Shown: positions 31,957 to 39,870, counted from the stretch's first letter. The stretch is 64,000 nt of DNA from Candidatus Nealsonbacteria bacterium DGGOD1a (GCA_022530585.1 CP092821.1:70222-134221), one strand, 5' to 3'. The notes: generated by a model not told the origin, from the sequence alone. Translations and numbers: made by a program.

Positions 31957-32586
31957 ATGATAAAGCTTGTTATTTTTGATTTTTTCGGCACTTTGGGTTA
32001 TTATGATTCCGCCGAGCATCGGCGGGTGTTTGAAAAGCTGAAAGAATTCAATTTGCCGGTTGACGAAGAAAAAGTTGTCGCGAAGCTGTCCGAAGTTTTG
32101 CCGGATTATTTTTCGCGCGCCGAAAGCTGGCAGGGAGTCGCCGACAAGATCATTCAGAAGCTGGGCATTGTTTTGGAACTTGACCGGCGCGAAACACTGG
32201 CCGCGTTTCTGGAAAGAAAATTGGCCTGCAAGCTGTTTTGCGATGCCAAAGAGGTGTTGAATCTTCCGCAGGATAAAGCGATTTTGACTTTAAGCGCTAA
32301 ATTTCTGATCGACAGCATTTCCGCATTGCGCCATTTCGCGGTGTTTACGCCGAAAACCGCGGGCGCGGCTAAACCCGAACTTAAGGCTTTTTTGGCGGTA
32401 CTGGCAAAAATGAAGGTCGATCCCGAAGAAGCGGTGATGGTGGGCGACAGTTTGGAAAATGACATTCTGCCCGCGTTGGCGCTGGGCATCAAACCGATAT
32501 TGATCGATAGAAAAGGAGAGATTGAAATTGATAATCCGGCAATCACCAAAATTTCTTCGCTGAAAGAACTGAAAAAGTGTCTTTAG
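31957..32586 (+). CDS. HAD-superfamily hydrolase
   Basis: Motif I VIFDFFGTLG, plus a late MVGDSLENDI motif. Confidence 0.75.
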   Translation: MIKLVIFDFFGTLGYYDSAEHRRVFEKLKEFNLPVDEEKVVAKLSEVLPDYFSRAESWQGVADKIIQKLGIVLELDRRETLAAFLERKLACKLFCDAKEVLNLPQDKAILTLSAKFLIDSISALRHFAVFTPKTAGAAKPELKAFLAVLAKMKVDPEEAVMVGDSLENDILPALALGIKPILIDRKGEIEIDNPAITKISSLKELKKCL

Positions 32587-34243
32587 TTCGTATTTCGTTT
32601 TTAATTTTGATATTTGATATTTGAAAATTGGTTATTGAAAATTGCGCGTAATCGCGCCTTGGGCCCGTAGTACAGTGGTACCACGCGGCATTCGCATTGC
32701 CGAGACGCGAGTCCGATTCTCGCCGGGTCCACATTTCTGTTTCGGAGGGTAAATTTTCGCCCGCCCCGCCTTCGGCGGGGTTTTGTTTTGCCAATTTTTC
32801 GAGGGAAATCCACGGCATTTTCAATTCCACGGCGAGGGTTTGGTTTTGAATTCGGCGGTTCGATCCGATCTTTTCAAGAAATGCGCGCATTTCTTGAAAA
32901 TCATTACCCAGAGCTAATTTTTCCGCTTGGTTTGCCTCTAAAACCCACTTTCGCGCGAGTTCGAGCCAACGATTGCCTTTTCGCTCAAAATCGGACAATT
33001 TTTCTTCAAAATCTTTTCTTTCGGCCATCAATTTGTTCTTTCGCTCCTGATATTCGGACAATCCCAAGCCGCCGTCCAGATAAGCGTCAGTCAGGCGGTT
33101 GATTTTTGCTTTTAAGGCCAAAAGCTGGCTTTGGAGATTTTGAGCGAAAAGTTCCGATGGTTGCTGGTTTTCGTTTTCCCATTGGTTCAATCTCTCCAGA
33201 TATTTTTCGCGCCATTCATCGGGCAAAGAAATTTTTTGAACACAGCTCTTAACCTGTTCGGCCAATTCTTCCTCCCGCAAAAAGCGGTGCTGTCCGCAAG
33301 TTATCGTTTTGCTTTTGTGAGTGCAACGATAATAAATATATATCTTGCCGCTCTTTTTGGTTTTTCTTTCTGCGGTGATTGAATAGCCGCAATCTCCGCA
33401 AGCGGCAAAATTAAGGAAATAAAAGCCTTTGTTTCCGCGCTTTTTGCGGGGTTTGCCGTTATCAGCCAAAGCCTGCTGGATTTGATCAAAAAGTTTTTTT
33501 GAAATCATCGGCTTGTGCGATCCTTGATGTATTTCTCCGCGATAGCGGAAGTATCCGTAATAAAAGGGATTTTCAAGAATATGGCGGACGGAAGCTATAT
33601 GCAAACGATTCCCGTTATGGCTGGTTAAACCAGCGGAAAACATTTTTTTCTGCATTGCCGTCAATGTATATTTTCCGGTAGCAAAAGCCTCCAAGCATTC
33701 TTTAACCTTTTTAAAAGTTTTTATATCAGGTTCAATGGTTCTTAACTTGGGTTCATTAAAATATCCCAAAGGGGCTTTTGCCGACAGTTCACCGCGCCGT
33801 ATTTTTTGCCTTATGCCGCGCAAAATATTTTCTCGAAGATTATCTGTATAATATTTAGCCTGCCCAAAAGCCACGGAAAGCATAAATTTTCCTTGCGGCG
33901 TTGGCTCAAACCAAAAAGTAGGGAAGCGCAAAGCAACGATCTTGCCAATATCCACAAGATAAATGATCCGCCCGCCGTCAATGGAATTGCGGGCTAAACG
34001 GTCGGGGTGCCAAGCCAAAATGCCAACGCCGTTCGTTTTCTCGATCTTTGCGATCATCTCCCCGAACTTCTCGCGACCCGGAATCTTCGCGCTTTTGGCT
34101 TCGGTGATTTCTTCGACAATCTCAAAACCTTCTTTTCGAGCATATTCCCGTAGCTCGCAAAGCTGTGCCTCAATACTCATTATTTGATGATCTTCGTCTT
34201 CGGTAGATTTTCGGGCGTAGAGGTAAAATTTAAGATTGGACAT
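32543..34243 (-). CDS. Large serine recombinase (resolvase N-domain, recombinase domain, zinc ribbon, coiled coil)
   Basis: N-terminal FYLYARKSTEDE (catalytic Ser), HPDRLARN, and Zn ribbon CGDCGYS...YYRCTHK...CGQ. The last 61 codons read through the CCAC core and the antisense of tRNA-Ala, so the functional stop is uncertain. Confidence 0.85.
   Translation of the reverse strand: MSNLKFYLYARKSTEDEDHQIMSIEAQLCELREYARKEGFEIVEEITEAKSAKIPGREKFGEMIAKIEKTNGVGILAWHPDRLARNSIDGGRIIYLVDIGKIVALRFPTFWFEPTPQGKFMLSVAFGQAKYYTDNLRENILRGIRQKIRRGELSAKAPLGYFNEPKLRTIEPDIKTFKKVKECLEAFATGKYTLTAMQKKMFSAGLTSHNGNRLHIASVRHILENPFYYGYFRYRGEIHQGSHKPMISKKLFDQIQQALADNGKPRKKRGNKGFYFLNFAACGDCGYSITAERKTKKSGKIYIYYRCTHKSKTITCGQHRFLREEELAEQVKSCVQKISLPDEWREKYLERLNQWENENQQPSELFAQNLQSQLLALKAKINRLTDAYLDGGLGLSEYQERKNKLMAERKDFEEKLSDFERKGNRWLELARKWVLEANQAEKLALGNDFQEMRAFLEKIGSNRRIQNQTLAVELKMPWISLEKLAKQNPAEGGAGENLPSETEMWTRRESDSRLGNANAAWYHCTTGPRRDYAQFSITNFQISNIKIKNEIRTKDTFSVLSAKKFW
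32590..32645. repeat. AT-rich repeat / ATTGAAA tract upstream of tRNA-Ala
   Basis: tttttaattttgatatttgatatttgaaaattggttattgaaaattg. Confidence 0.7.
32661..32731 (+). tRNA. tRNA-Ala (anticodon CGC) with non-canonical features
   Basis: Acceptor gggcccg/cgggtcc with the G3:U70 Ala identity pair. Anticodon stem cggca/tgccg with loop ttCGCat. The D-stem (gtac/ccac) has two mismatches. The T-loop reads tccgatt (C at position 55). 71 nt. Confidence 0.65.
32729..32852. repeat. IR-A left copy (124 bp)
   Basis: Reverse complement of 36411-36534 with 4 mismatches by eye. It contains the 3' coding end of the recombinase and a ccccgccttcggcgggg hairpin. Confidence 0.9.
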
Positions 34244-34261
34244 AGGTTTTTAATGTGATAA

Positions 34262-34880
34262 ACTGTATTTTAATAATGTTTTCACCCTGTCGGTCTTGCC
34301 GCAGGGAACAACTTAAGGGGGTGGTTTGGTAGGGGGATATCCCCCTACCATCACGCGCGAAAGCGCGTCCGTGTTACAATAAGCCAATATGGAGCAAGAA
34401 AAGCGGGATATCTGGCGTTGGTACCACAATGTTTCCGAATGTTATTACCACATCCAGATTACGGTCAAATATCGCAAAGCATTACTGAACGAAAAGGTGA
34501 TTGCCGCAATTGTCGAGAGCCTGAAAGGATTTATGGAACGGTACGCCATTGAGATCAGCCATGTGGGATTCGACCAAGACCACGCCCATATTCTGGCAAG
34601 ATTCCTGCCGAAGTATTCCGGCGGCCAGGTTATCAAAATAATAAAAAGCATTACCGCGCGCGAGGTGTTCCGGCAAGTTCCCGAAATTAAAAAAGAACTC
34701 TGGGGTGGAGAGTTCTGGACAGACGGCTATTATATCGCTACGATCAGCGCACGCGGTAATAGGAAAGTTATTGAGCGATACATTCAAAACCAAGGCAGAC
34801 CAAAAGATGTGAGCCAGTTACGATTGTTTGAATTGTAGCTGCGAACGCCCTGCGGTCTTGCCGCAGGGTCATTTACAGCA
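34262..34880 (+). mobile_element. IS200-like insertion sequence (TnpA only); boundaries approximate
   Basis: A Y1 transposase gene is flanked by near-identical subterminal hairpins: ccctgtcggtcttgccgcaggg (34285-34306) and ccctgcggtcttgccgcaggg (34848-34868). Confidence 0.65.
34389..34838 (+). CDS. tnpA: IS200/IS605-family Y1 (HUH) transposase TnpA
   Basis: HUH motif DHAHILARF. Catalytic Tyr region WTDGYYIATIS. About 149 aa. Confidence 0.85.
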   Translation: MEQEKRDIWRWYHNVSECYYHIQITVKYRKALLNEKVIAAIVESLKGFMERYAIEISHVGFDQDHAHILARFLPKYSGGQVIKIIKSITAREVFRQVPEIKKELWGGEFWTDGYYIATISARGNRKVIERYIQNQGRPKDVSQLRLFEL

Positions 34881-34931
34881 GAAATAAAGTTGTCTATTAT
34901 CAATTAAAATTCTACTACTTTAACTTAGTAT

Positions 34932-35129
34932 ATGTCAAACCTTGCCGAAAATTTAAGGCGGCTTAGAAAAGCCAAAGACTTAACCCAAGAAAAGCTGGCG
35001 CGGCTTGCCGATCTTACCAATAACACAATAATTAAAATTGAAGCTGGTAAAAACCAAAATCCAACGCTCGACACTCTCAAAAATATCGCCAAAGTTCTTG
35101 AGGTTAGCGTTGATGAATTAATAAAATAA
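34932..35129 (+). CDS. XRE-family HTH transcriptional regulator
   Basis: LRRLRKAKDLTQEKLARLADLTNNTIIKIEAGKNQNPTLDTL is a typical Cro/C1 HTH. Confidence 0.8.
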   Translation: MSNLAENLRRLRKAKDLTQEKLARLADLTNNTIIKIEAGKNQNPTLDTLKNIAKVLEVSVDELIK

Positions 35130-35138
35130 TTAAAAACT

Positions 35139-35675
35139 ATGGACAATTTAATGCAAAATTTCGGCGATAGAGGCGAAAAAATATTGAAAGAAAATATTGT
35201 CAATAACGAGGAAAAAATATTTGTAAAACTACAAGGTTCATTCGGGGAAGGATTAGTAATCACAGACAAAAGACTTTATGTTTTAAAATGGGGATTTATG
35301 ACAGGGAATCTTATAGGCGGAAGATGTAATGTTTTTGAGTTTGGCAATATTACAGGCATAGAGATTAAAAAAGGTTGGACTGGCACTTTTGAAGTATTAA
35401 CGCCAGCGACTCAAAACACTCAAAAAAGTTATTGGGGCAAGGACAATAATAGTGCGATTAAAAGTGATAATATTGTTACTTTCCAACAGGATAAATTTAA
35501 TCTTTTCCAAGAAGCTACAAAAATTGGCAGAGAAATGATAAGCAATTTTCATTCAAAAGGAAGTGTTAAAACCACTGATTATTCGGAATTAGAAAAATTA
35601 GCAGAGCTTAAAGAAAAAGGTATAATTACGCAAGAAGAATTTAATGCCAAGAAAAAATCTATTCTTGGGTTATAA
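35139..35675 (+). CDS. PH-like (bPH/YokE-type) domain protein with a C-terminal SHOCT domain
   Basis: GLVITDKRLYVLKWG... resembles a bacterial PH domain. The C-terminal ELEKLAELKEKGIITQEEFNAKKKSIL is the SHOCT motif. Confidence 0.55.
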   Translation: MDNLMQNFGDRGEKILKENIVNNEEKIFVKLQGSFGEGLVITDKRLYVLKWGFMTGNLIGGRCNVFEFGNITGIEIKKGWTGTFEVLTPATQNTQKSYWGKDNNSAIKSDNIVTFQQDKFNLFQEATKIGREMISNFHSKGSVKTTDYSELEKLAELKEKGIITQEEFNAKKKSILGL

Positions 35676-35691
35676 ATTAAAATAAAAAAAT

Positions 35692-36393
35692 ATGATGGAC
35701 TCTTTATTTCGGATTTTATTTTATGTTTCATTTGTTTGTCTAATAATCGGCCTAATTAAACCAACCATTTTTTCGCGCTTCATAAAAGGAGGATCAACGA
35801 GAAAAAAAGTTCTGATAATTTTCGGAATTATGGCACTCGTTTTTGCTTTTTTGTTTGGGGTAACGACTGATACATCGAAAAATAATCAAGCGACGGAAAA
35901 TACACAAAATACTTCCCAAACCGAAGTCAAAGAATCAAATATTGATGGATTGTCGCCAAAATTAGAGAAAATTGAAAATATAGAAGAAAGAACGGCGGCT
36001 ATAAAAAAAGTAAAAACATCGGCAGATCAAGAGATGCTGGCAAGAATGGGATCGCTTATATCATTCATAGATGTTTATAAAAATCCTAAGGGCGAAGGAG
36101 CAATAGTTTGGATGGGGAGCATAGCGCGTCCTAATAGTGGCTTTATATATTTAATTTCGGATAGTTCTGTTTATGCAGTCAATGGAGATGCTTCTGTTTT
36201 GTCGCCTGATATACCATCATCTAAAAATCTCGCGTTTGAAGATTTAAAGGAAATAGGAGAAATGAGATCTTTGGATTATAAAATGCTCTTAGAGGCGTGT
36301 TTAAAAGACGTAGAAACATTAAAAGAAAACGGATTGGTTGAAAAAACAATCAAAGAGGCAGAAGATAAGTGTTATTTAAAATACGAAAAATAA
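35692..36393 (+). CDS. Membrane-anchored hypothetical protein
   Basis: Two N-terminal TM helices. No motif recognised. AT-rich. Confidence 0.45.
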   Translation: MMDSLFRILFYVSFVCLIIGLIKPTIFSRFIKGGSTRKKVLIIFGIMALVFAFLFGVTTDTSKNNQATENTQNTSQTEVKESNIDGLSPKLEKIENIEERTAAIKKVKTSADQEMLARMGSLISFIDVYKNPKGEGAIVWMGSIARPNSGFIYLISDSSVYAVNGDASVLSPDIPSSKNLAFEDLKEIGEMRSLDYKMLLEACLKDVETLKENGLVEKTIKEAEDKCYLKYEK

Positions 36394-36410
36394 CCTTATA
36401 AAATCAGTAA

Positions 36411-36534
36411 AATTCAAAACCAAACCCTCGCCGTCGCATTGAAAGAGCCGTGGATTTCCCTCGAAAAATTGGCAAAACAAAACCCCGCCGAAGGCGGGGC
36501 GGGCGAAAATTTACCCTCCGAAACAGAAATGTGG
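36411..36534. repeat. IR-A right copy (124 bp), inverted
   Basis: Read on the + strand it encodes IQNQTLAVALKEPWISLEKLAKQNPAEGGAGENLPSETEMW. It continues into IR-B as SLLKEVCTFYQQNPE, with a stop at 36580-36582. Confidence 0.9.
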
Positions 36535-36749
36535 TCTTTACTGAAAGAAGTTTGCACTTTCTACCAGCAAAATCCTGAATAGTTTGAGAATACCAAAACC
36601 CAGTCCAAAATGCCAGCTTCTGACCCCCGACTAAGCTCACTTCACCCTGTTTTGGAGTACCAACCCAGGGCTTCGCTCGCAAACCGGCAGCCGGCTTGGG
36701 AATCGGGCTTGGCACAACGCATTTTAGCCGAAAAGATGGGGGGTGAAGG
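36531..36749. repeat. IR-B left copy (219 bp)
   Basis: Reverse complement of 38360-38578 with 2 mismatches by eye. It overlaps IR-A by the 4-bp gtgg/ccac core. Confidence 0.9.
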
Positions 36750-36794
36750 GAAAAGAATTTTAAAATTATTTATTAAAATTTTAGCATTAAAATT

Positions 36795-37301
36795 ATGGAC
36801 ACTGTATTAGCTTTTTTCTTAATTTTTCTTTCACTCGTTATTGGATTTGTCGTGCGCCATCTACTACCTTCATATTTTTCAGAGAAAGGGAAAAATTTAG
36901 CTACAAAAGAAGATATATCTGAAATCACTAAAAAGATAGAGGAAGTAAAAATGGAATTTTCCAGCAAATCTCATACCTTAATAAAGAAAAGAGAGAGCTA
37001 TGAAAAAATATGCAATGGTATGCAGGTATTTGTCGTCGGTCAACCGCAAGATCAAGCCAAAAAGAATGAAATGCTGGAGGCATATTCTACGGCTTGGTTA
37101 TGGGCAAATGATGATGTTCTGAAAAAATTAAATGAACATATTAATTTCCAATTGAAAAATAGCAGTTGCCCGGGATCGGTAGATCAAGCAGGCCTTAAAG
37201 AAAGTTATATAAAATGTATTTTGGAAATGAGAAAAGATTCAGGCTACAGTAATACAAATCAAAAATTATCTGATTTCCAATTCATTTCTTTTAAACCATA
37301 A
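36795..37301 (+). CDS. Hypothetical protein with an N-terminal TM helix
   Basis: ORF only. AT-rich. Located inside the IR-B-flanked segment. Confidence 0.45.
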   Translation: MDTVLAFFLIFLSLVIGFVVRHLLPSYFSEKGKNLATKEDISEITKKIEEVKMEFSSKSHTLIKKRESYEKICNGMQVFVVGQPQDQAKKNEMLEAYSTAWLWANDDVLKKLNEHINFQLKNSSCPGSVDQAGLKESYIKCILEMRKDSGYSNTNQKLSDFQFISFKP

Positions 37302-37372
37302 GTCGAACGCTTTACTTTTTGTTAGAATTTGATAGTCTGGCAATTAGCAATTTAAGTATGAGGTGAGATTAT

Positions 37373-37915
37373 ATGACGGAAGAGAGGAGCGGCCTTAGAA
37401 ACACATACCAAGAAGTTAAAGACGAAGATCGTCTTGAGCGTGGCTTAGAAAAAATAATTGACGGCCATTTGCTTATACAGCGGGAATTTCCCAATCCCGA
37501 CCATCCAGAATCATCCTGCAAAGAGGTAGTTGTAATCTTTGAAACAAACCGCGGAATCCCTGTTGCGGTACAGGTAAAACTGGTAGAAAAATACCAAAAA
37601 GCGGGATGGCAACTAAAATTTGGCAAAGACTGGAGATCGGGCGGCCCTTGGGTAATCTGCAACTACTTGGAAAGCGATAATCGAAGGATGGCCAATACAA
37701 AGAAAATAATGGAAGGTGTTGGCCATAGAATGTCGCCGTGGGAAAAAGAGCAAGGAGGGCACAAATGTAAATGTACGGAGCTAGGTTGTGAGCTTGAGAT
37801 ATTTTTTAGAAAAGATCAGAGACCTGACCAATGGATATACTGGTGTGGCAGTTCTCCGGTGCAACGGCTTTTGAAGTGTCCCTGTACCGAAGAGGATACC
37901 ATCGCCAACTTATAA
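37373..37915 (+). CDS. Hypothetical protein with a Cys-rich C-terminal part
   Basis: ORF only. KCKCTELGCE...CGSSP...CPC suggests metal binding. Confidence 0.45.
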   Translation: MTEERSGLRNTYQEVKDEDRLERGLEKIIDGHLLIQREFPNPDHPESSCKEVVVIFETNRGIPVAVQVKLVEKYQKAGWQLKFGKDWRSGGPWVICNYLESDNRRMANTKKIMEGVGHRMSPWEKEQGGHKCKCTELGCELEIFFRKDQRPDQWIYWCGSSPVQRLLKCPCTEEDTIANL

Positions 37916-38099
37916 GGAGAGGATTAAATTATAGACCTTTAGTCCTTTTTTATTTACCAAAAAACTCGTCATTCTAGAATGACGACTAAATGTCGAGTTA
38001 ATGCCAACTTTTTGGCTCGAATTTTGCCTATTTTTTGGCGATATTTCAGCTACCCAAACTCTGCATTCCTTAGAATGCAGAGTGAATGCAGACTTTTTG

Positions 38100-38465
38100 C
38101 CCCTGTTTTGGAATGAATCCGGCCGTTCGGATTGGCAGCCGGCAGACCTGCCCAAAGGCACAGGCTATGATTTAACAACAGCAAGGCGTTGTTTTGCCAA
38201 GGTATGACCACAAACCAGTGTATTACCGCCAAAACAACGCCGTAGAAAAGGGCTCAAGCCTTGGCCTTACCGCTTGGGAATCGGGCTTAAAAACTTGTCA
38301 TTTATAGAATGCCAACTCAATGCCAACCAAATGACAAGTTTTTAACTGCACAACGCACACCTTCACCCCCCATCTTTTCGGCTAAAATGCGTTGTGCCAA
38401 GCCCGATTCCCAAGCCGGCTGCCGGTTTGCGAGCGAAGCCCTGGGTTGGTACTCCAAAACAGGGC
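38100..38465. ncRNA. Candidate structured RNA or extended palindromic DNA site (strand unknown)
   Basis: Perfectly nested complementarities. Outer pairs: 38101-38112/38453-38464 and 38134-38143/38414-38423. A hairpin forms at 38185-38196/38230-38241. A 17-bp stem at 38272-38288/38399-38415 encloses hairpins 38289-38303/38329-38343 and 38348-38357/38388-38397. Confidence 0.35.
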
Positions 38466-38578
38466 GAAGTGAGCTTAGTCGGGGGTCAGAAGCTGGCATT
38501 TTGGACTGGGTTTTGGTATTCTTAAACTATTCAGGATTTTGCTGGTAGAAAGTGCAAACTTCTTTCAGTAAAGACCAC
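38360..38578. repeat. IR-B right copy (219 bp)
   Basis: See 36531-36749. It ends in the CCAC core at 38575-38578. Confidence 0.9.
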
Positions 38579-38628
38579 CCATAAGATAATTTGAAGATTG
38601 CACAGGTTAAACCTGTGCGATTGCGTAT

Positions 38629-39870
38629 ATGGCCGAGTTTAAATTTGAAATAATAAAACAGGATAAAAATTCGCGCGCGCGCGCCGGGGTGATCCATACG
38701 CGCCGGGGAGATATTGAAACGCCTTATTTTGTGCCGGTGGGGACTTTGGCGTCGGTGCGCGGTTTGGATTCATCCGACCTTGGAATGTTGGGCGCGCAAT
38801 GCGCGCTGATCAACACTTACCATTTGCATTTAAAGCCGGGCGACGAAACGATCAAGAAATTGGGCGGAACTCATAAATTTATGAATTTTGATTTGCCCTT
38901 GTTTTCGGATTCGGGCGGCTTTCAGGCGTTCTCGCTGGGATTGGCGCGCGAGCACAACATCGGCAAGATCGGCGTTTTCCCGGAAGAAACCGCGAACAGT
39001 GAACTTCTCGGAAATTTTAAAAGGGTCCGACCCTTTTTAAAAGGGTCCGACCCTTTTAAAAAAAATCTGGTACGAATCACCGGCGGGGGTATTGAATTCC
39101 GATCAATCTATGACGGATCGCGGCATTTTTTCGATGCCAAGAAATCGATGGAAATACAATCAAATTTGGACAGCGATATCATTATGGCGTTTGACGAATG
39201 CACCTCGCCGCTTTCGGATTATGATTATACCAAGATCGCGATGGCGCGGACTCACGATTGGGCCGAGCAATCGCTGGAATACCACAATAAAGACCAGGCA
39301 ATCTACGGCATAATCCAAGGCGGTTATTTCAAGGATTTGCGCGATATTAGCGCGAAATTTATCAATGATCTGCCTTTTGACGGGATTGCCATCGGCGGGT
39401 CGCTGGGAAAAACAAAAGCGGATATGCACGAAATTATTGATTGGGTGATTCCGCAATTGGATGTCCGGCCGCGCCATCTTTTGGGAATTGGAGAGATTGA
39501 TGATATTTTTAAATCCGTGGAACAAGGAATCGACACTTTTGATTGCGTGGCGGCCACGCGCAACGCGCGGCGCGGCTGTTTGTTTGTATTGCCCGAATCG
39601 GGCGGAAGTTTGGCCAACAAATTCCGCCTCAACATTTCCGGCGCGAAATATAAAAACGACAGCGATCCGATTGACGCAAACTGCCATTGCCCGGTATGCG
39701 AAAATTACTCCCGCGCCTATTTGCGTCATTTGCACAACGCGCGCGAATTAAGTTATTTTCGCCTGGCGACGATCCATAATTTGTGGTTTATGCTTCGCCT
39801 GATGGAAAAAATCCGGGAAAGCATAGAAAACGGCAGATTCGCGGAACTGAAAAAAGAATGGTTGGGATAA
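38629..39870 (+). CDS. tgt: Queuine tRNA-ribosyltransferase
   Basis: FSDSGGFQAF (catalytic Asp region), GIAIGG, and zinc site CHCPVCENYSRAYLRHLH. It carries an internal insertion of a palindromic repeat. Confidence 0.9.
   Translation: MAEFKFEIIKQDKNSRARAGVIHTRRGDIETPYFVPVGTLASVRGLDSSDLGMLGAQCALINTYHLHLKPGDETIKKLGGTHKFMNFDLPLFSDSGGFQAFSLGLAREHNIGKIGVFPEETANSELLGNFKRVRPFLKGSDPFKKNLVRITGGGIEFRSIYDGSRHFFDAKKSMEIQSNLDSDIIMAFDECTSPLSDYDYTKIAMARTHDWAEQSLEYHNKDQAIYGIIQGGYFKDLRDISAKFINDLPFDGIAIGGSLGKTKADMHEIIDWVIPQLDVRPRHLLGIGEIDDIFKSVEQGIDTFDCVAATRNARRGCLFVLPESGGSLANKFRLNISGAKYKNDSDPIDANCHCPVCENYSRAYLRHLHNARELSYFRLATIHNLWFMLRLMEKIRESIENGRFAELKKEWLG
39015..39065. repeat. Tandem palindromic repeat inserted in-frame in tgt
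   Basis: ttttaaaagggtccgaccc (39015-39033), tttttaaaagggtccgaccc (39034-39053), then ttttaaaaaaaa. Each unit is a hairpin aaaagggtc-c-gaccctttt. It is translated as FKRVRPFLKGSDPFKKN. Confidence 0.85.

What the first reader, a model, noticed from the sequence alone, without database searches (positions are those of the whole stretch)
37920..38628. Densely structured ~650-bp non-coding region at the right end of the element, with perfectly nested long-range complementarity
No convincing ORF lies between the 37373-37915 gene and tgt. The sequence is packed with hairpins: cgtcattctagaatgacg at 37967-37984 and ctctgcattc/gaatgcagag at 38059-38082.

From 38100 to 38465 it forms a consistent nested set with no conflicts:
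- 12 bp: 38101-38112 with 38453-38464.
- 10 bp: 38134-38143 with 38414-38423.
- 12-bp hairpin: 38185-38196 with 38230-38241.
- 17-bp perfect stem: 38272-38288 with 38399-38415, closing a two-hairpin junction.
- The two enclosed hairpins: 15 bp (38289-38303 with 38329-38343) and 10 bp (38348-38357 with 38388-38397).

The motif AATGCCAAC occurs three times (about 37999, 38308 and 38318). Half of these pairing partners lie inside IR-B, so they are also present inverted at 36.6 kb without their partners.

This is either a sizeable structured RNA linked to the recombinase element or an elaborate accessory-site/cruciform DNA architecture. I looked for hallmarks of tmRNA, RNase P, SRP and the common riboswitches and saw none.
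Basis: seen in the sequence. Interest (0 to 1): 0.7.

Follow-up and report, generated by a model that had tools for sequence, protein, structure and literature searches.

The report
Conserved folded end-module of recombinase island
The hairpin-packed stretch is real: it is a conserved non-coding module at the right end of a small mobile island that carries variable, often anti-phage, cargo genes in ultra-small (Patescibacteria) bacteria; several stems are kept by matching changes on both sides, but whether it acts as RNA or as DNA is not settled.

Summary
The fold is far more stable than shuffles (z -11.3 on +, -7.0 on -). The region is not coding and matches no Rfam family.

It is the right-end module of a 5.85-kb large-serine-recombinase (LSR) island (32733-38578) inserted at the 3' end of tRNA-Ala. 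Related modules occur in about 25 loci among 61 from metagenomes and Patescibacteria MAGs. They always lie between a variable cargo, which includes known anti-phage defence genes in several loci, and a conserved ~130-nt 'core' (38360-38490).

A second, inverted core copy (36619-36749) sits upstream of the cargo, inside an internal inverted copy of the whole attP region.

The long-range stems arise because 38101-38357 is a fragmented inverted copy of the core, interrupted by hairpin insertions. Stems H3-H6 are kept by fully compensated changes (three to four variants each). H2 is conserved but does not covary. H1 is lineage-specific.

These stems are almost purely Watson-Crick with no wobble bias, which looks DNA-like or two-strand-like. 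A hairpin inside the core shows a clear G·U excess on the + strand, which looks RNA-like.

Best guess (0.38): an RNA-level terminator, insulator and fold at the end of the cargo operon. A DNA-level site is the main rival.

The parts
32661..32732 (+). tRNA-Ala(CGC), the integration target. The crossover core CCAC lies at its 3' end (32729-32732).
32543..34243 (-). Large serine recombinase (566 aa: Resolvase + Recombinase + Zn_ribbon_recom). The ORF runs through IR-A and attL and is antisense to the tRNA.
32729..32852 (.). IR-A (arm 'a'): the P' side of attP, holding the recombinase 3' coding end and a GC hairpin plus T-run downstream of the tRNA.
36411..36749 (.). Y: a contiguous internal inverted copy of the whole attP region. 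It consists of IR-A' (36411-36534) plus IR-B (36531-36749). Its reverse complement equals the B' end joined to the A start.
   Evidence: The same layout is seen in L019, L011, L013 and L043.
36619..36749 (-). 'Plain' copy of the conserved core, lying directly upstream of the cargo genes.
36795..37915 (+). Cargo slot of this island: two genes of unknown function (168 aa, 36795-37301; 180 aa, 37373-37915). In relatives this slot holds other genes, several of them known defence genes.
37959..38014 (.). Cluster 1: A-run, palindrome CGTCATTC-TA-GAATGACG, two further direct copies of the arm at 10-11-nt spacing, then a T-run. On the - strand it scores as a terminator-like site.
   Evidence: (D5)
38056..38098 (.). 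Cluster 2: palindrome CTCTGCATTC/GAATGCAGAG, one extra direct arm, then a T-run.
38101..38143 (+). Anti-core fragments 1 and 2. These are the 5' arms of the 12-bp stem (38101-38112, H1) and the 10-bp stem (38134-38143, H2), and are direct copies of IR-B 36646-36657 and 36685-36694.
38185..38241 (.). Hairpin H3 (12-bp stem, 33-nt interior). It is kept in diverged homologues by compensated changes.
38272..38288 (+). Anti-core fragment 3: the 5' arm of the 17-bp stem H4, which pairs with 38399-38415. Four fully complementary variants occur in the family.
38287..38345 (.). Cluster 3 / H5: a 15-17-bp stem (AAAAACTTGTCATTT / AAATGACAAGTTTTT) whose loop holds two AATGCCAAC copies.
   Evidence: (I19)
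38348..38397 (.). H6: a 10-bp stem (GCACAACGCA / TGCGTTGTGC) that closes the inner end of the core as a 30-nt loop. It is the one feature present even in minimal modules.
38360..38490 (+). Core copy next to attR. It is 80-97% identical across islands whose recombinases are only 27-45% identical.
38438..38465 (+). Core-internal hairpin s5: outer stem, purine-purine (G·A-type) mismatches in the middle, inner stem and tetraloop. It shows an excess of G·U on this strand.
38491..38578 (+). Class-specific outer part of IR-B' (the P arm of attP), ending in the crossover core CCAC at 38575-38578. This is the right end of the island.
38579..38628 (+). Host flank upstream of tgt, with its own hairpin (about 38600-38618). 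It is not part of the island.

Best explanation
The stretch 37920-38578 is the conserved non-coding right-end module of an LSR-mobilised island, 32733-38578, inserted in tRNA-Ala.

The island is laid out as: tRNA | a - recombinase module - a' | b(core) - cargo genes - structured module - core - b' | host.

The module has two kinds of part:
1. Three palindromes, each flanked by an A-run and a T-run and carrying tandem copies of one arm, plus hairpin H3.
2. A fragmented inverted copy ('anti-core') of the adjacent ~130-nt core.

Proposed mechanism, all inferred rather than shown: the module works on transcripts. The palindromes act as terminators or insulators between the cargo operon, which always points at them, and the core and host genes beyond. 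In transcripts that do read through, the anti-core pairs with the core (H6, H4, less surely H2 and H1). This locks the core into a long interrupted hairpin. The core itself acts as RNA in the + orientation here.

Shown: the anatomy, family-wide conservation, compensated stems, fixed orientation relative to the cargo, and the strand-specific G·U signal in the core hairpin.

Inferred: that the region is transcribed at all, that the palindromes terminate transcription, and what the core RNA does.
For: - Stems are perfect and the fold is much more stable than shuffles.
- About 25 homologous modules were found among 61 loci.
- H3, H4, H5 and H6 are each kept by three to four fully complementary sequence variants, including in the diverged L054, L058 and L064.
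- The formal count gives 90.5% of cells paired against 36-45% when slid, 17 doubly changed pairs, and 0 of 500 shuffles reaching the observed values.
- The module is kept while the neighbouring genes are completely exchanged. Cargo includes a CBASS cyclase, AbiL, Mrr, DpnI, PIN and SocA.
- Cargo genes run toward the module in all 13 fully resolved loci.
- The A-run/stem/T-run design is invariant. A terminator-like hit lies on the - strand at cluster 1.
- The core hairpin s5 shows 25 G·U against 4 A·C in the + orientation, in both copy types. This argues that this strand acts as a single strand.
- Multi-branch helices of 10-17 bp lying 30-340 nt apart cannot extrude from duplex DNA. They need a single-stranded molecule.
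- The small ORFs are not conserved.
Against: - H3, H4 and H6 have about 665 Watson-Crick cells, 7 G·U and 9 A·C. An RNA read from one strand should tolerate G·U, as s5 does.
- Within a cluster, the direct and inverted arm copies change together (AATGACGAC to AACGACGAC, and so on). That looks like concerted evolution of DNA repeats or of protein-binding sites.
- No promoter could be placed with confidence, and there are no expression data.
- On the + strand, clusters 1 and 2 are poor terminators because the T-run follows the distal arm copy. The tight hairpin plus T-run is on the - strand.
- H2 does not covary and has uncompensated mismatches (L003, L021, L049). H1 is lost in lineages with the other core-hairpin variant.
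- Two loci (L010, L042) carry mismatched H4 and H5 arms and still persist.
Confidence: 0.38

Rival explanations
1. DNA-level cis element. The palindromes and the core/anti-core inverted repeat act as DNA, either as single-stranded or cruciform folds or as arrays of protein-binding sites. Possible roles are marking the functional attP arm against its internal copy Y, controlling recombination or inversion, or serving as a replication or mobilisation origin for the excised circle.
For: - Stems are almost purely Watson-Crick with symmetric G·U and A·C counts.
- Variants fall into discrete classes rather than a graded series with wobble intermediates.
- Arm motifs of 10-11 nt are phased, repeated directly and inverted, and vary in copy number (2-5) between loci.
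- The module lies within 90-200 nt of the recombination crossover.
- The arms of IR-B exchange sequence: two of the three differences between the window and GCA_029216075.1 are the two B/B' mismatch positions.
- LSR-less islands bounded only by the two core-bearing arms exist (L066, L036).
Against: - LSRs are not known to need accessory sites (established knowledge).
- Stem variants A and B occur with several att and recombinase classes, so they do not co-evolve with the recombinase.
- The cluster motif is absent from the recombinase-HTH intergenic regions.
- No replication, relaxase or family-wide HUH gene was seen. The IS200-type gene is specific to the window.
- Branched long-range helices do not form in duplex DNA.
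- The s5 hairpin evolves in an RNA-like way.
Confidence: 0.3
2. A free-standing large structured non-coding RNA (about 400-550 nt, either strand) with its own promoter and a trans-acting role. One example would be an antisense or sponge partner of the plain core copy that forms the cargo leader. This would be a new 'ornate' RNA class of mobile elements.
For: - Size, multi-helix nesting, compensatory changes and location in a mobile element next to a tRNA gene.
- Tight hairpins followed by T-runs on the - strand at clusters 1 and 2 could end a - strand RNA that starts near the core.
- The core and the plain copy are exact complements of each other's transcripts.
Against: - The module varies greatly in size. 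Minimal versions keep only H6 and one cluster (L052, L013, L040).
- No conserved promoter was found.
- The helices lack wobble pairs.
- There is no Rfam relative.
- Loops and junctions are not especially conserved.
Confidence: 0.17
3. A functionless remnant: an old inverted duplication of the IR-B core that was broken up by insertions. It looks structured only because it is a repeat.
For: All four long-range 5' arms are collinear pieces of the core in mirror order, interrupted by inserted hairpins. H1 and H2 show no selection for pairing.
Against: - The module is retained at 76-93% identity while the adjacent cargo is replaced.
- The 10-17-nt arms are too short and too isolated to be homogenised by ordinary gene conversion. 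Yet they match their partner in four (H4) or three (H6) variants.
- In L014, L057, L010 and L042 the H6 arm matches the adjacent core copy and not the plain copy.
Confidence: 0.08
4. Assembly artefact: a chimeric fold-back around an inverted repeat.
For: Short contigs L004 and L005 end exactly k-1 bases inside IR-B on both sides, which shows that the repeat breaks assemblies.
Against: The same 13-20 kb sequence occurs in independent assemblies from JGI and NCBI (L001 and L002, 99.985-100% identical). The architecture recurs in dozens of different islands.
Confidence: 0.01

Closest known systems
Large-serine-recombinase integrative islands that carry defence cargo (SCCmec-type Ccr elements with defence genes, PMC11470126; PLE satellites, PMC9410903)
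   Same: - An LSR with Resolvase, Recombinase and Zn-ribbon domains.
- Site-specific insertion with a very short identity core.
- A small island with exchangeable anti-phage cargo.
   Different: - The host is Patescibacteria and the target is the 3' end of a tRNA.
- The island contains an internal inverted copy of its whole attP region.
- The cargo slot is bracketed by two inverted copies of a ~130-nt conserved core.
- A 400-nt folded module sits at one end. None of these features is described for those elements, to my knowledge or in the library searched.
Rho-independent (bidirectional) terminators and REP/BIME-type palindromes at operon ends
   Same: - Palindromes flanked by A- and T-runs directly after the last cargo gene.
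- They fold on both strands, which would explain a Watson-Crick-only constraint.
   Different: - Stems are AT-rich, and one arm is reiterated in tandem 2-5 times.
- The palindromes are not dispersed in the genome. They are unique to this locus within the 64 kb.
- They are embedded in a larger set of long-range pairings with the core.
Large 'ornate' RNAs of mobile elements (GOLLD, ROOL, HEARO/omega RNA) in Rfam
   Same: Several hundred nucleotides long, with many helices, compensatory changes and a mobile-element context next to tRNA genes.
   Different: - No match to any Rfam model, even at E <= 10.
- Helices lack G·U pairs.
- Half of the pairing partners are an inverted-repeat arm that is also present alone elsewhere.
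- Size varies from about 100 to 560 nt.
Integron attC sites and gene cassettes
   Same: Variable, promoter-distal cargo followed by an imperfect palindrome that is conserved in structure more than in sequence. The palindrome is thought to act as a folded single strand.
   Different: - There is no IntI tyrosine recombinase and no R/L box pattern.
- The module is five to ten times longer.
- The recombinase here is a serine enzyme that acts on duplex DNA.
2-micron-plasmid-type architecture: a circle split into two unique segments by inverted repeats that carry the recombinase target
   Same: - The excised island would carry two inverted ~340-bp copies of the attP region, separating a recombinase segment from a cargo segment.
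- Both orientations of the recombinase segment occur in the family (window type against L028).
   Different: - The enzyme is an LSR, not the Flp tyrosine recombinase.
- No replication function was seen.
- The cargo segment was found in one orientation only (8 of 8).
- Flipping by the LSR is not shown.

Membership tests
LSR integrative element (the whole island) | Recombinase with an N-terminal resolvase catalytic domain, a recombinase domain and a zinc beta-ribbon | tested here: met
   PF00239 (E 2.6e-22), PF07508 (7.9e-11) and PF13408 (2.1e-8) in the 566-aa ORF.
LSR integrative element (the whole island) | attL and attR are hybrids of one attP and one attB, sharing only a short central core | tested here: met
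   The reverse complement of 36411-36749 equals the B' end joined to the A start. tRNA|A and B'|flank share only CCAC. In L022 the same B' end is joined to a different host flank at CCACATTTCT.
LSR integrative element (the whole island) | An excised circular form or an empty attB site has been observed | tested here: inconclusive
   No empty site was recovered. L028 shows a core/b' arm joined to an 'a' arm, but this is best read as a tandem junction.
Any described RNA family (Rfam 15) | A covariance-model match at or near the gathering score | tested here: not met
   Only tRNAs reach the gathering score in the 64 kb. Nothing relevant appears at E <= 10 in 36350-38700.
Structured RNA in general | Helices supported by compensatory changes among homologues | tested here: met
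   H3, H4, H5 and H6 have three to four complementary variants each. There are 17 doubly changed pairs, and 0 of 500 shuffles reach the observed values.
Structured RNA in general | Strand-specific tolerance of G·U pairs | tested here: inconclusive
Met for the core hairpin s5 on the + strand (25 against 4).
Structured RNA in general | Transcription of the region | not testable with these tools
   No expression data are available. Consensus promoter scans are uninformative.
Intrinsic terminator | A stable stem-loop directly followed by a U-run on the transcribed strand | tested here: inconclusive
   The - strand site 37985-37966 passes the scan. Clusters 2 and 3 have A5 and T5 flanks in all homologues, but their stems are GC-poor. 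On the + strand the T-run follows the distal arm copy.
Integron attC | An IntI integrase and R''-L''/L'-R' boxes in a 57-141-bp imperfect palindrome | tested here: not met
   No tyrosine recombinase is present in the island. The module is 400-560 nt with a different layout.
REP/REPIN-type dispersed palindromes with a RAYT (Y1) transposase | Many dispersed copies in the genome and a conserved Y1 transposase partner | tested here: not met
   The motif clusters occur only at 37959-38345 within the 64 kb. The Y1_Tnp gene is present in the window but, apart from one weak 28%-identity match in L017, not in related islands.

The most novel reading that the evidence does not exclude
The core plus its anti-core define a new class of mobile-element RNA or folded-DNA switch. 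The island would be built from two separable modules, a recombinase module and a cargo module. Each module is bounded by inverted repeats that carry half of the recombinase site. The ~130-nt core, free upstream of the cargo but locked by the anti-core at the island end, would be a transcribed regulator that couples cargo (defence) expression, or module exchange, to the integrated or excised state.
Probability: 0.2. Interest if true: 0.8.

Novelty: new variant of a known kind. Interest (0 to 1): 0.6.

Why it matters
Patescibacteria (CPR) are uncultured in the main, and their mobile elements and defence islands are barely described. This locus defines a recurrent small LSR island with three notable properties:
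- It has a plug-in slot for anti-phage genes.
- That slot is framed by one of the most conserved non-coding sequences of the element: 80-97% DNA identity where the recombinases share only 27-45% protein identity.
- It has an unusual internal inverted copy of its own attachment region.

If the folded module is an RNA, it is a new sizeable structured RNA tied to defence cargo. If it is a DNA site, it would be a rare case of accessory architecture next to a serine-integrase attP. Either way, the conserved core is a handy sequence tag for finding such islands, and new defence genes, in metagenomes.

Tried and rejected
- Known RNA families: Rfam at gathering threshold and at E <= 10 gave nothing relevant.
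- Coding potential: the small ORFs are broken in homologues.
- Viral origin: two conserved core patterns gave 0 hits in IMG/VR.
- Dispersed REP or MITE-like elements: the motif clusters are unique to this locus within the 64 kb.
- Operators of the island's HTH regulator: the recombinase-HTH intergenic regions of five islands lack the motif.
- Recombinase accessory sites that co-evolve with the LSR: stem variants A and B are shared across att classes.
- Core as a fragment of a host RNA gene (tmRNA, RNase P, SRP): no Rfam signal was found, and by eye I saw no resemblance. Not pursued further.
- Sigma-70 or sigma-54 promoters inside or beside the core: only weak, non-conserved matches (and reading). 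An invariant TAAAAT inside the core is a possible outward -10 box, but no consistent -35 was found.
- A global low-gap-penalty alignment of the region to IR-B was uninformative. The collinear fragments were identified by eye and by exact matches instead.
- Frequent inversion of the cargo segment: the module is on the attR side in 8 of 8 loci with context, so there is no sign of flipping.
- Literature: four searches found no description of this island type or module.

Full report

Yes. AATGCCAAC occurs at 38000, 38308 and 38319, with one unrelated copy at 34019.

As RNA, 37920-38628 folds at -270.7 kcal/mol on the + strand against -191.8 +/- 7.0 for dinucleotide shuffles (z -11.3). The - strand gives z -7.0.

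No Rfam family matches at gathering score anywhere in the region. Nothing relevant appears at E <= 10.

The small ORFs that gene callers place here (68, 79 and 60 aa) are interrupted by frameshifts or early stops in most of 17 homologues. The region is therefore non-coding.

The claim of 'no conflicts' needs two corrections:
- Bases 38414-38415 are used by both the 10-bp and the 17-bp stems.
- The 3' arm of the 12-bp stem is also half of a local hairpin (38438-38465) that is conserved in all copies of the repeat.

**2. What surrounds it**

The 566-aa ORF at 32543-34243 (-) is a large serine recombinase, or LSR. tRNA-Ala ends at 32732. There are two inverted-repeat pairs:
- A (32729-32852) with A' (36411-36534): 124 nt, 4 mismatches.
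- B (36531-36749) with B' (38360-38578): 219 nt, 2 mismatches.

A' and B are contiguous. The reverse complement of 36411-36749 therefore equals the end of B' joined to the start of A. The junctions tRNA|A and B'|tgt-flank share only CCAC with it.

This is the signature of an LSR island (32733-38578) integrated by attP x attB at the tRNA 3' end. Unusually, a complete inverted copy of the attP region ('Y') lies inside the island. In contig L022 the same B' end is joined to a different host flank at CCACATTTCT, which confirms the right boundary.

The window is 100% identical to a JGI contig and 99.985% identical to GCA_029216075.1 over 13-20 kb, so it is not an assembly artefact. Of the three differences from the NCBI genome, two are exactly the two positions where B and B' differ. 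This suggests sequence exchange between the arms.

**3. Why the long-range stems exist**

The 5' arms of the four long-range stems are:
- 38101-38112
- 38134-38143
- 38272-38288
- 38348-38357

They are collinear pieces of the inner part of B in direct orientation, so they are inverted relative to the adjacent B'. Between them lie two inserted local hairpins: H3 (38185-38241) and cluster 3/H5 (38287-38345).

The 'perfectly nested' set is thus a fragmented third copy of the repeat, an 'anti-core', facing the neighbouring copy.

**4. Relatives**

A 19-mer from the repeat found 44 metagenome loci. A second pattern found 17 loci in Patescibacteria MAGs: Paceibacterota, Minisyncoccales and Moranbacteria. 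Neither pattern occurs in IMG/VR.

All these loci share a ~130-nt 'core' (window 38360-38490, the reverse complement of 36619-36749). There are 90 nhmmer hits and 60 distinct full-length sequences.

The core is 80-97% identical in DNA. The associated recombinases are only about 27-45% identical in protein to the window's, and they insert at different tRNAs: Ala, Leu and Gly. Outside the core, the att-proximal arm is specific to each class.

The full architecture recurs in L019, L011, L013 and L043:
tRNA | a - LSR - HTH ... a'|b(core) - cargo - module - core - b' | host.

Between the two inverted cores lies a variable cargo. It includes:
- a CBASS-type cyclase (PADLOC E 8e-187)
- AbiL
- Mrr and DpnI nucleases
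- a PIN protein
- a SocA/Panacea antitoxin
- SDH- and trypsin-like proteases

The window's own two cargo proteins have no family match.

In all 13 resolved loci the cargo genes run from the 'plain' core toward the structured module. In L007/L043 one of the two large ORFs is on the other strand. In 8 of 8 loci with context, the module lies on the attR side.

The recombinase segment occurs in both orientations across the family (window against L028). LSR-less islands bounded only by the two core-bearing arms exist next to tRNA-Gly (L066, L036).

**5. Is the fold conserved?**

The module (window about 37958-38359 plus the core) is recognisable in about 25 loci. It is 76-93% identical where the flanking genes are unrelated.

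|---|---|---|
| Cells paired | 90.5% | 36-45% |
| Pairs changed on both sides | 17 | 1-7 |
| Shuffles reaching observed values | 0 of 500 | n/a |

Helix by helix:

| Helix | Finding |
|---|---|
| H4 (17 bp) | Four fully complementary variants: GCTTGGGAATCGGGCTT, GCCGGAATTGGGCTT, GGCTCGAATTGGGCTC, TCGGATTGGGCCG |
| H6 | Three variants |
| H3 | Three variants |
| H5 and the other two clusters | Several variants, all perfect |
| H2 | Conserved on both sides, no covariation, uncompensated mismatches |
| H1 | Intact only in lineages that have the matching variant of the core hairpin |

L010 and L042 have mismatched H4 and H5 arms. The pattern fits a recombination breakpoint in the cluster-3 loop. 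Minimal modules (L052, L013, L040) keep only H6 and sometimes one cluster.

The region is therefore not a drifting remnant.

**6. RNA or DNA?**

Two signals disagree.

In H3, H4 and H6 there are about 665 Watson-Crick cells, 7 G·U and 9 A·C. The arm motifs of each cluster change together in direct and inverted copies. Their copy number varies from 2 to 5. This is what DNA repeats do, or sites that must fold on both strands, such as bidirectional terminators.

Second, the hairpin inside the core (s5, 38438-38465) behaves like RNA. There are 46 distinct variants. Purine-purine (G·A-type) mismatches recur in the middle, and the inner stem is swapped between variants. In the + orientation there are 25 G·U against 4 A·C, in both the module-adjacent copies (9:1) and the plain copies (16:3).

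Branched helices that lie 30-340 nt apart cannot form in duplex DNA, so some single-stranded state is implied. No gene for single-strand DNA metabolism is shared by the family. The IS200-type Y1 gene is a window-specific insertion.

**7. Most likely mechanism (inferred)**

The three clusters have the design A-run, stem, tandem arm copies, T-run. They lie directly after the last cargo gene. On the - strand the tight hairpin is followed at once by the T-run.

I read them, with H3, as terminators or insulators. They would separate the cargo operon from the core and the host genes beyond it.

I read the anti-core as pairing with the core in any read-through transcript (H6 and H4, perhaps H2 and H1). 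That would lock the core into a long interrupted hairpin. The plain core copy upstream of the cargo has no such partner.

Confidence is 0.38.

The main rival (0.30) is a DNA-level cis element that is protein-bound or folded. It might distinguish the working attP arm from the internal copy, or control recombination. Against it:
- Stem variants do not track recombinase class.
- The island's HTH control regions lack the motif.

A free-standing large ncRNA (0.17) and a neutral remnant (0.08) are less likely.

**8. Comparison with known systems and novelty**

The island as a whole meets the defining features of an LSR integrative element. It resembles Ccr/SCCmec-type and PLE-type defence carriers in principle (PMC11470126, PMC9410903).

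The following were not found in Rfam or in four literature searches:
- the internal inverted attP copy
- the core-bracketed cargo slot
- the folded end module

I rate the finding as a new variant of a known kind, with interest 0.6.

Noticed in passing
window 36411-36749 (also L019 9958-10290, L011 3157-3491, L013 5133-5445): The island carries a complete internal inverted copy of its own attP region: the recombinase 3' end, the crossover and the core-bearing arm. Once excised, the circle would have two inverted ~340-bp copies that split it into a recombinase segment and a cargo segment, rather like a 2-micron plasmid.
   Followed up: partly
window 36586 and 36644, against L001 (GCA_029216075.1): Of only three differences in 20.5 kb between the window and the NCBI genome, two are the two positions where IR-B and IR-B' differ. 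In the NCBI genome the arms are identical. This suggests gene conversion between the arms or a mixed population.
   Followed up: yes
window 34285-34868: An IS200-type Y1 transposase gene (34389-34838) lies between two direct copies of a 21-22-nt palindromic sequence, CCCTG(T)CGGTCTTGCCGCAGGG, at 34285 and 34848. A perfect 12-bp hairpin lies at 34327-34350. The insertion splits the recombinase-HTH intergenic region and is absent from related islands.
   Followed up: partly
window 39015-39061 (inside tgt, 38629-39870): A 23-nt near-perfect palindromic unit, TTTTAAAAGGGTCCGACCCTTTT, occurs twice back to back within the tgt reading frame. It is translated in frame as ...FKRVRPFLKGSDPFKK... and splits the Pfam TGT match into two stretches.
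   Followed up: no
window 32543-32852: The recombinase ORF continues across attL, antisense through the whole tRNA-Ala gene, and into the end of the neighbouring HAD-hydrolase gene. Its C-terminus is therefore about 46 residues longer in the integrated state (566 aa) than predicted across attP or Y (stop at 36580-36582).
   Followed up: partly
L028 1-7476; L041: In another recombinase class the LSR gene lies next to the internal copy Y instead of next to the island end, so the recombinase segment is inverted relative to the window. The left arm of L028 is joined to the core-bearing arm of a different island, which points to tandem insertion.
   Followed up: partly
L066 4122-4479, L036 2713-3070 (compare L065 5054-7049): Islands exist in which the plain core lies about 155 nt from tRNA-Gly with no recombinase gene between. 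A close relative (L065) has a full LSR there. The cargo module, bounded by the two inverted core-bearing arms, can therefore exist without its recombinase.
   Followed up: partly
L003 about 1390 (window about 38141): L003 is identical to the window, apart from 454-type homopolymer errors, up to about 38141. It is only about 80-85% identical from there on, with a different att-proximal arm. This is a sharp mosaic breakpoint inside the module, at the 10-bp stem.
   Followed up: partly
L051, L054, L058 (all from JAKLGH010000002.1, 184 kb): One Patescibacteria MAG contig holds at least four core copies of different variants at separate places. Several islands of this family can therefore coexist in one genome.
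   Followed up: no
window 38438-38465 and all core copies: The core hairpin keeps one or two purine-purine mismatches (G on the 5' side, A on the 3' side) in its middle, even where the inner stem sequence is completely replaced. This may be a protein-recognition or K-turn-like feature. It was not analysed further.
   Followed up: no
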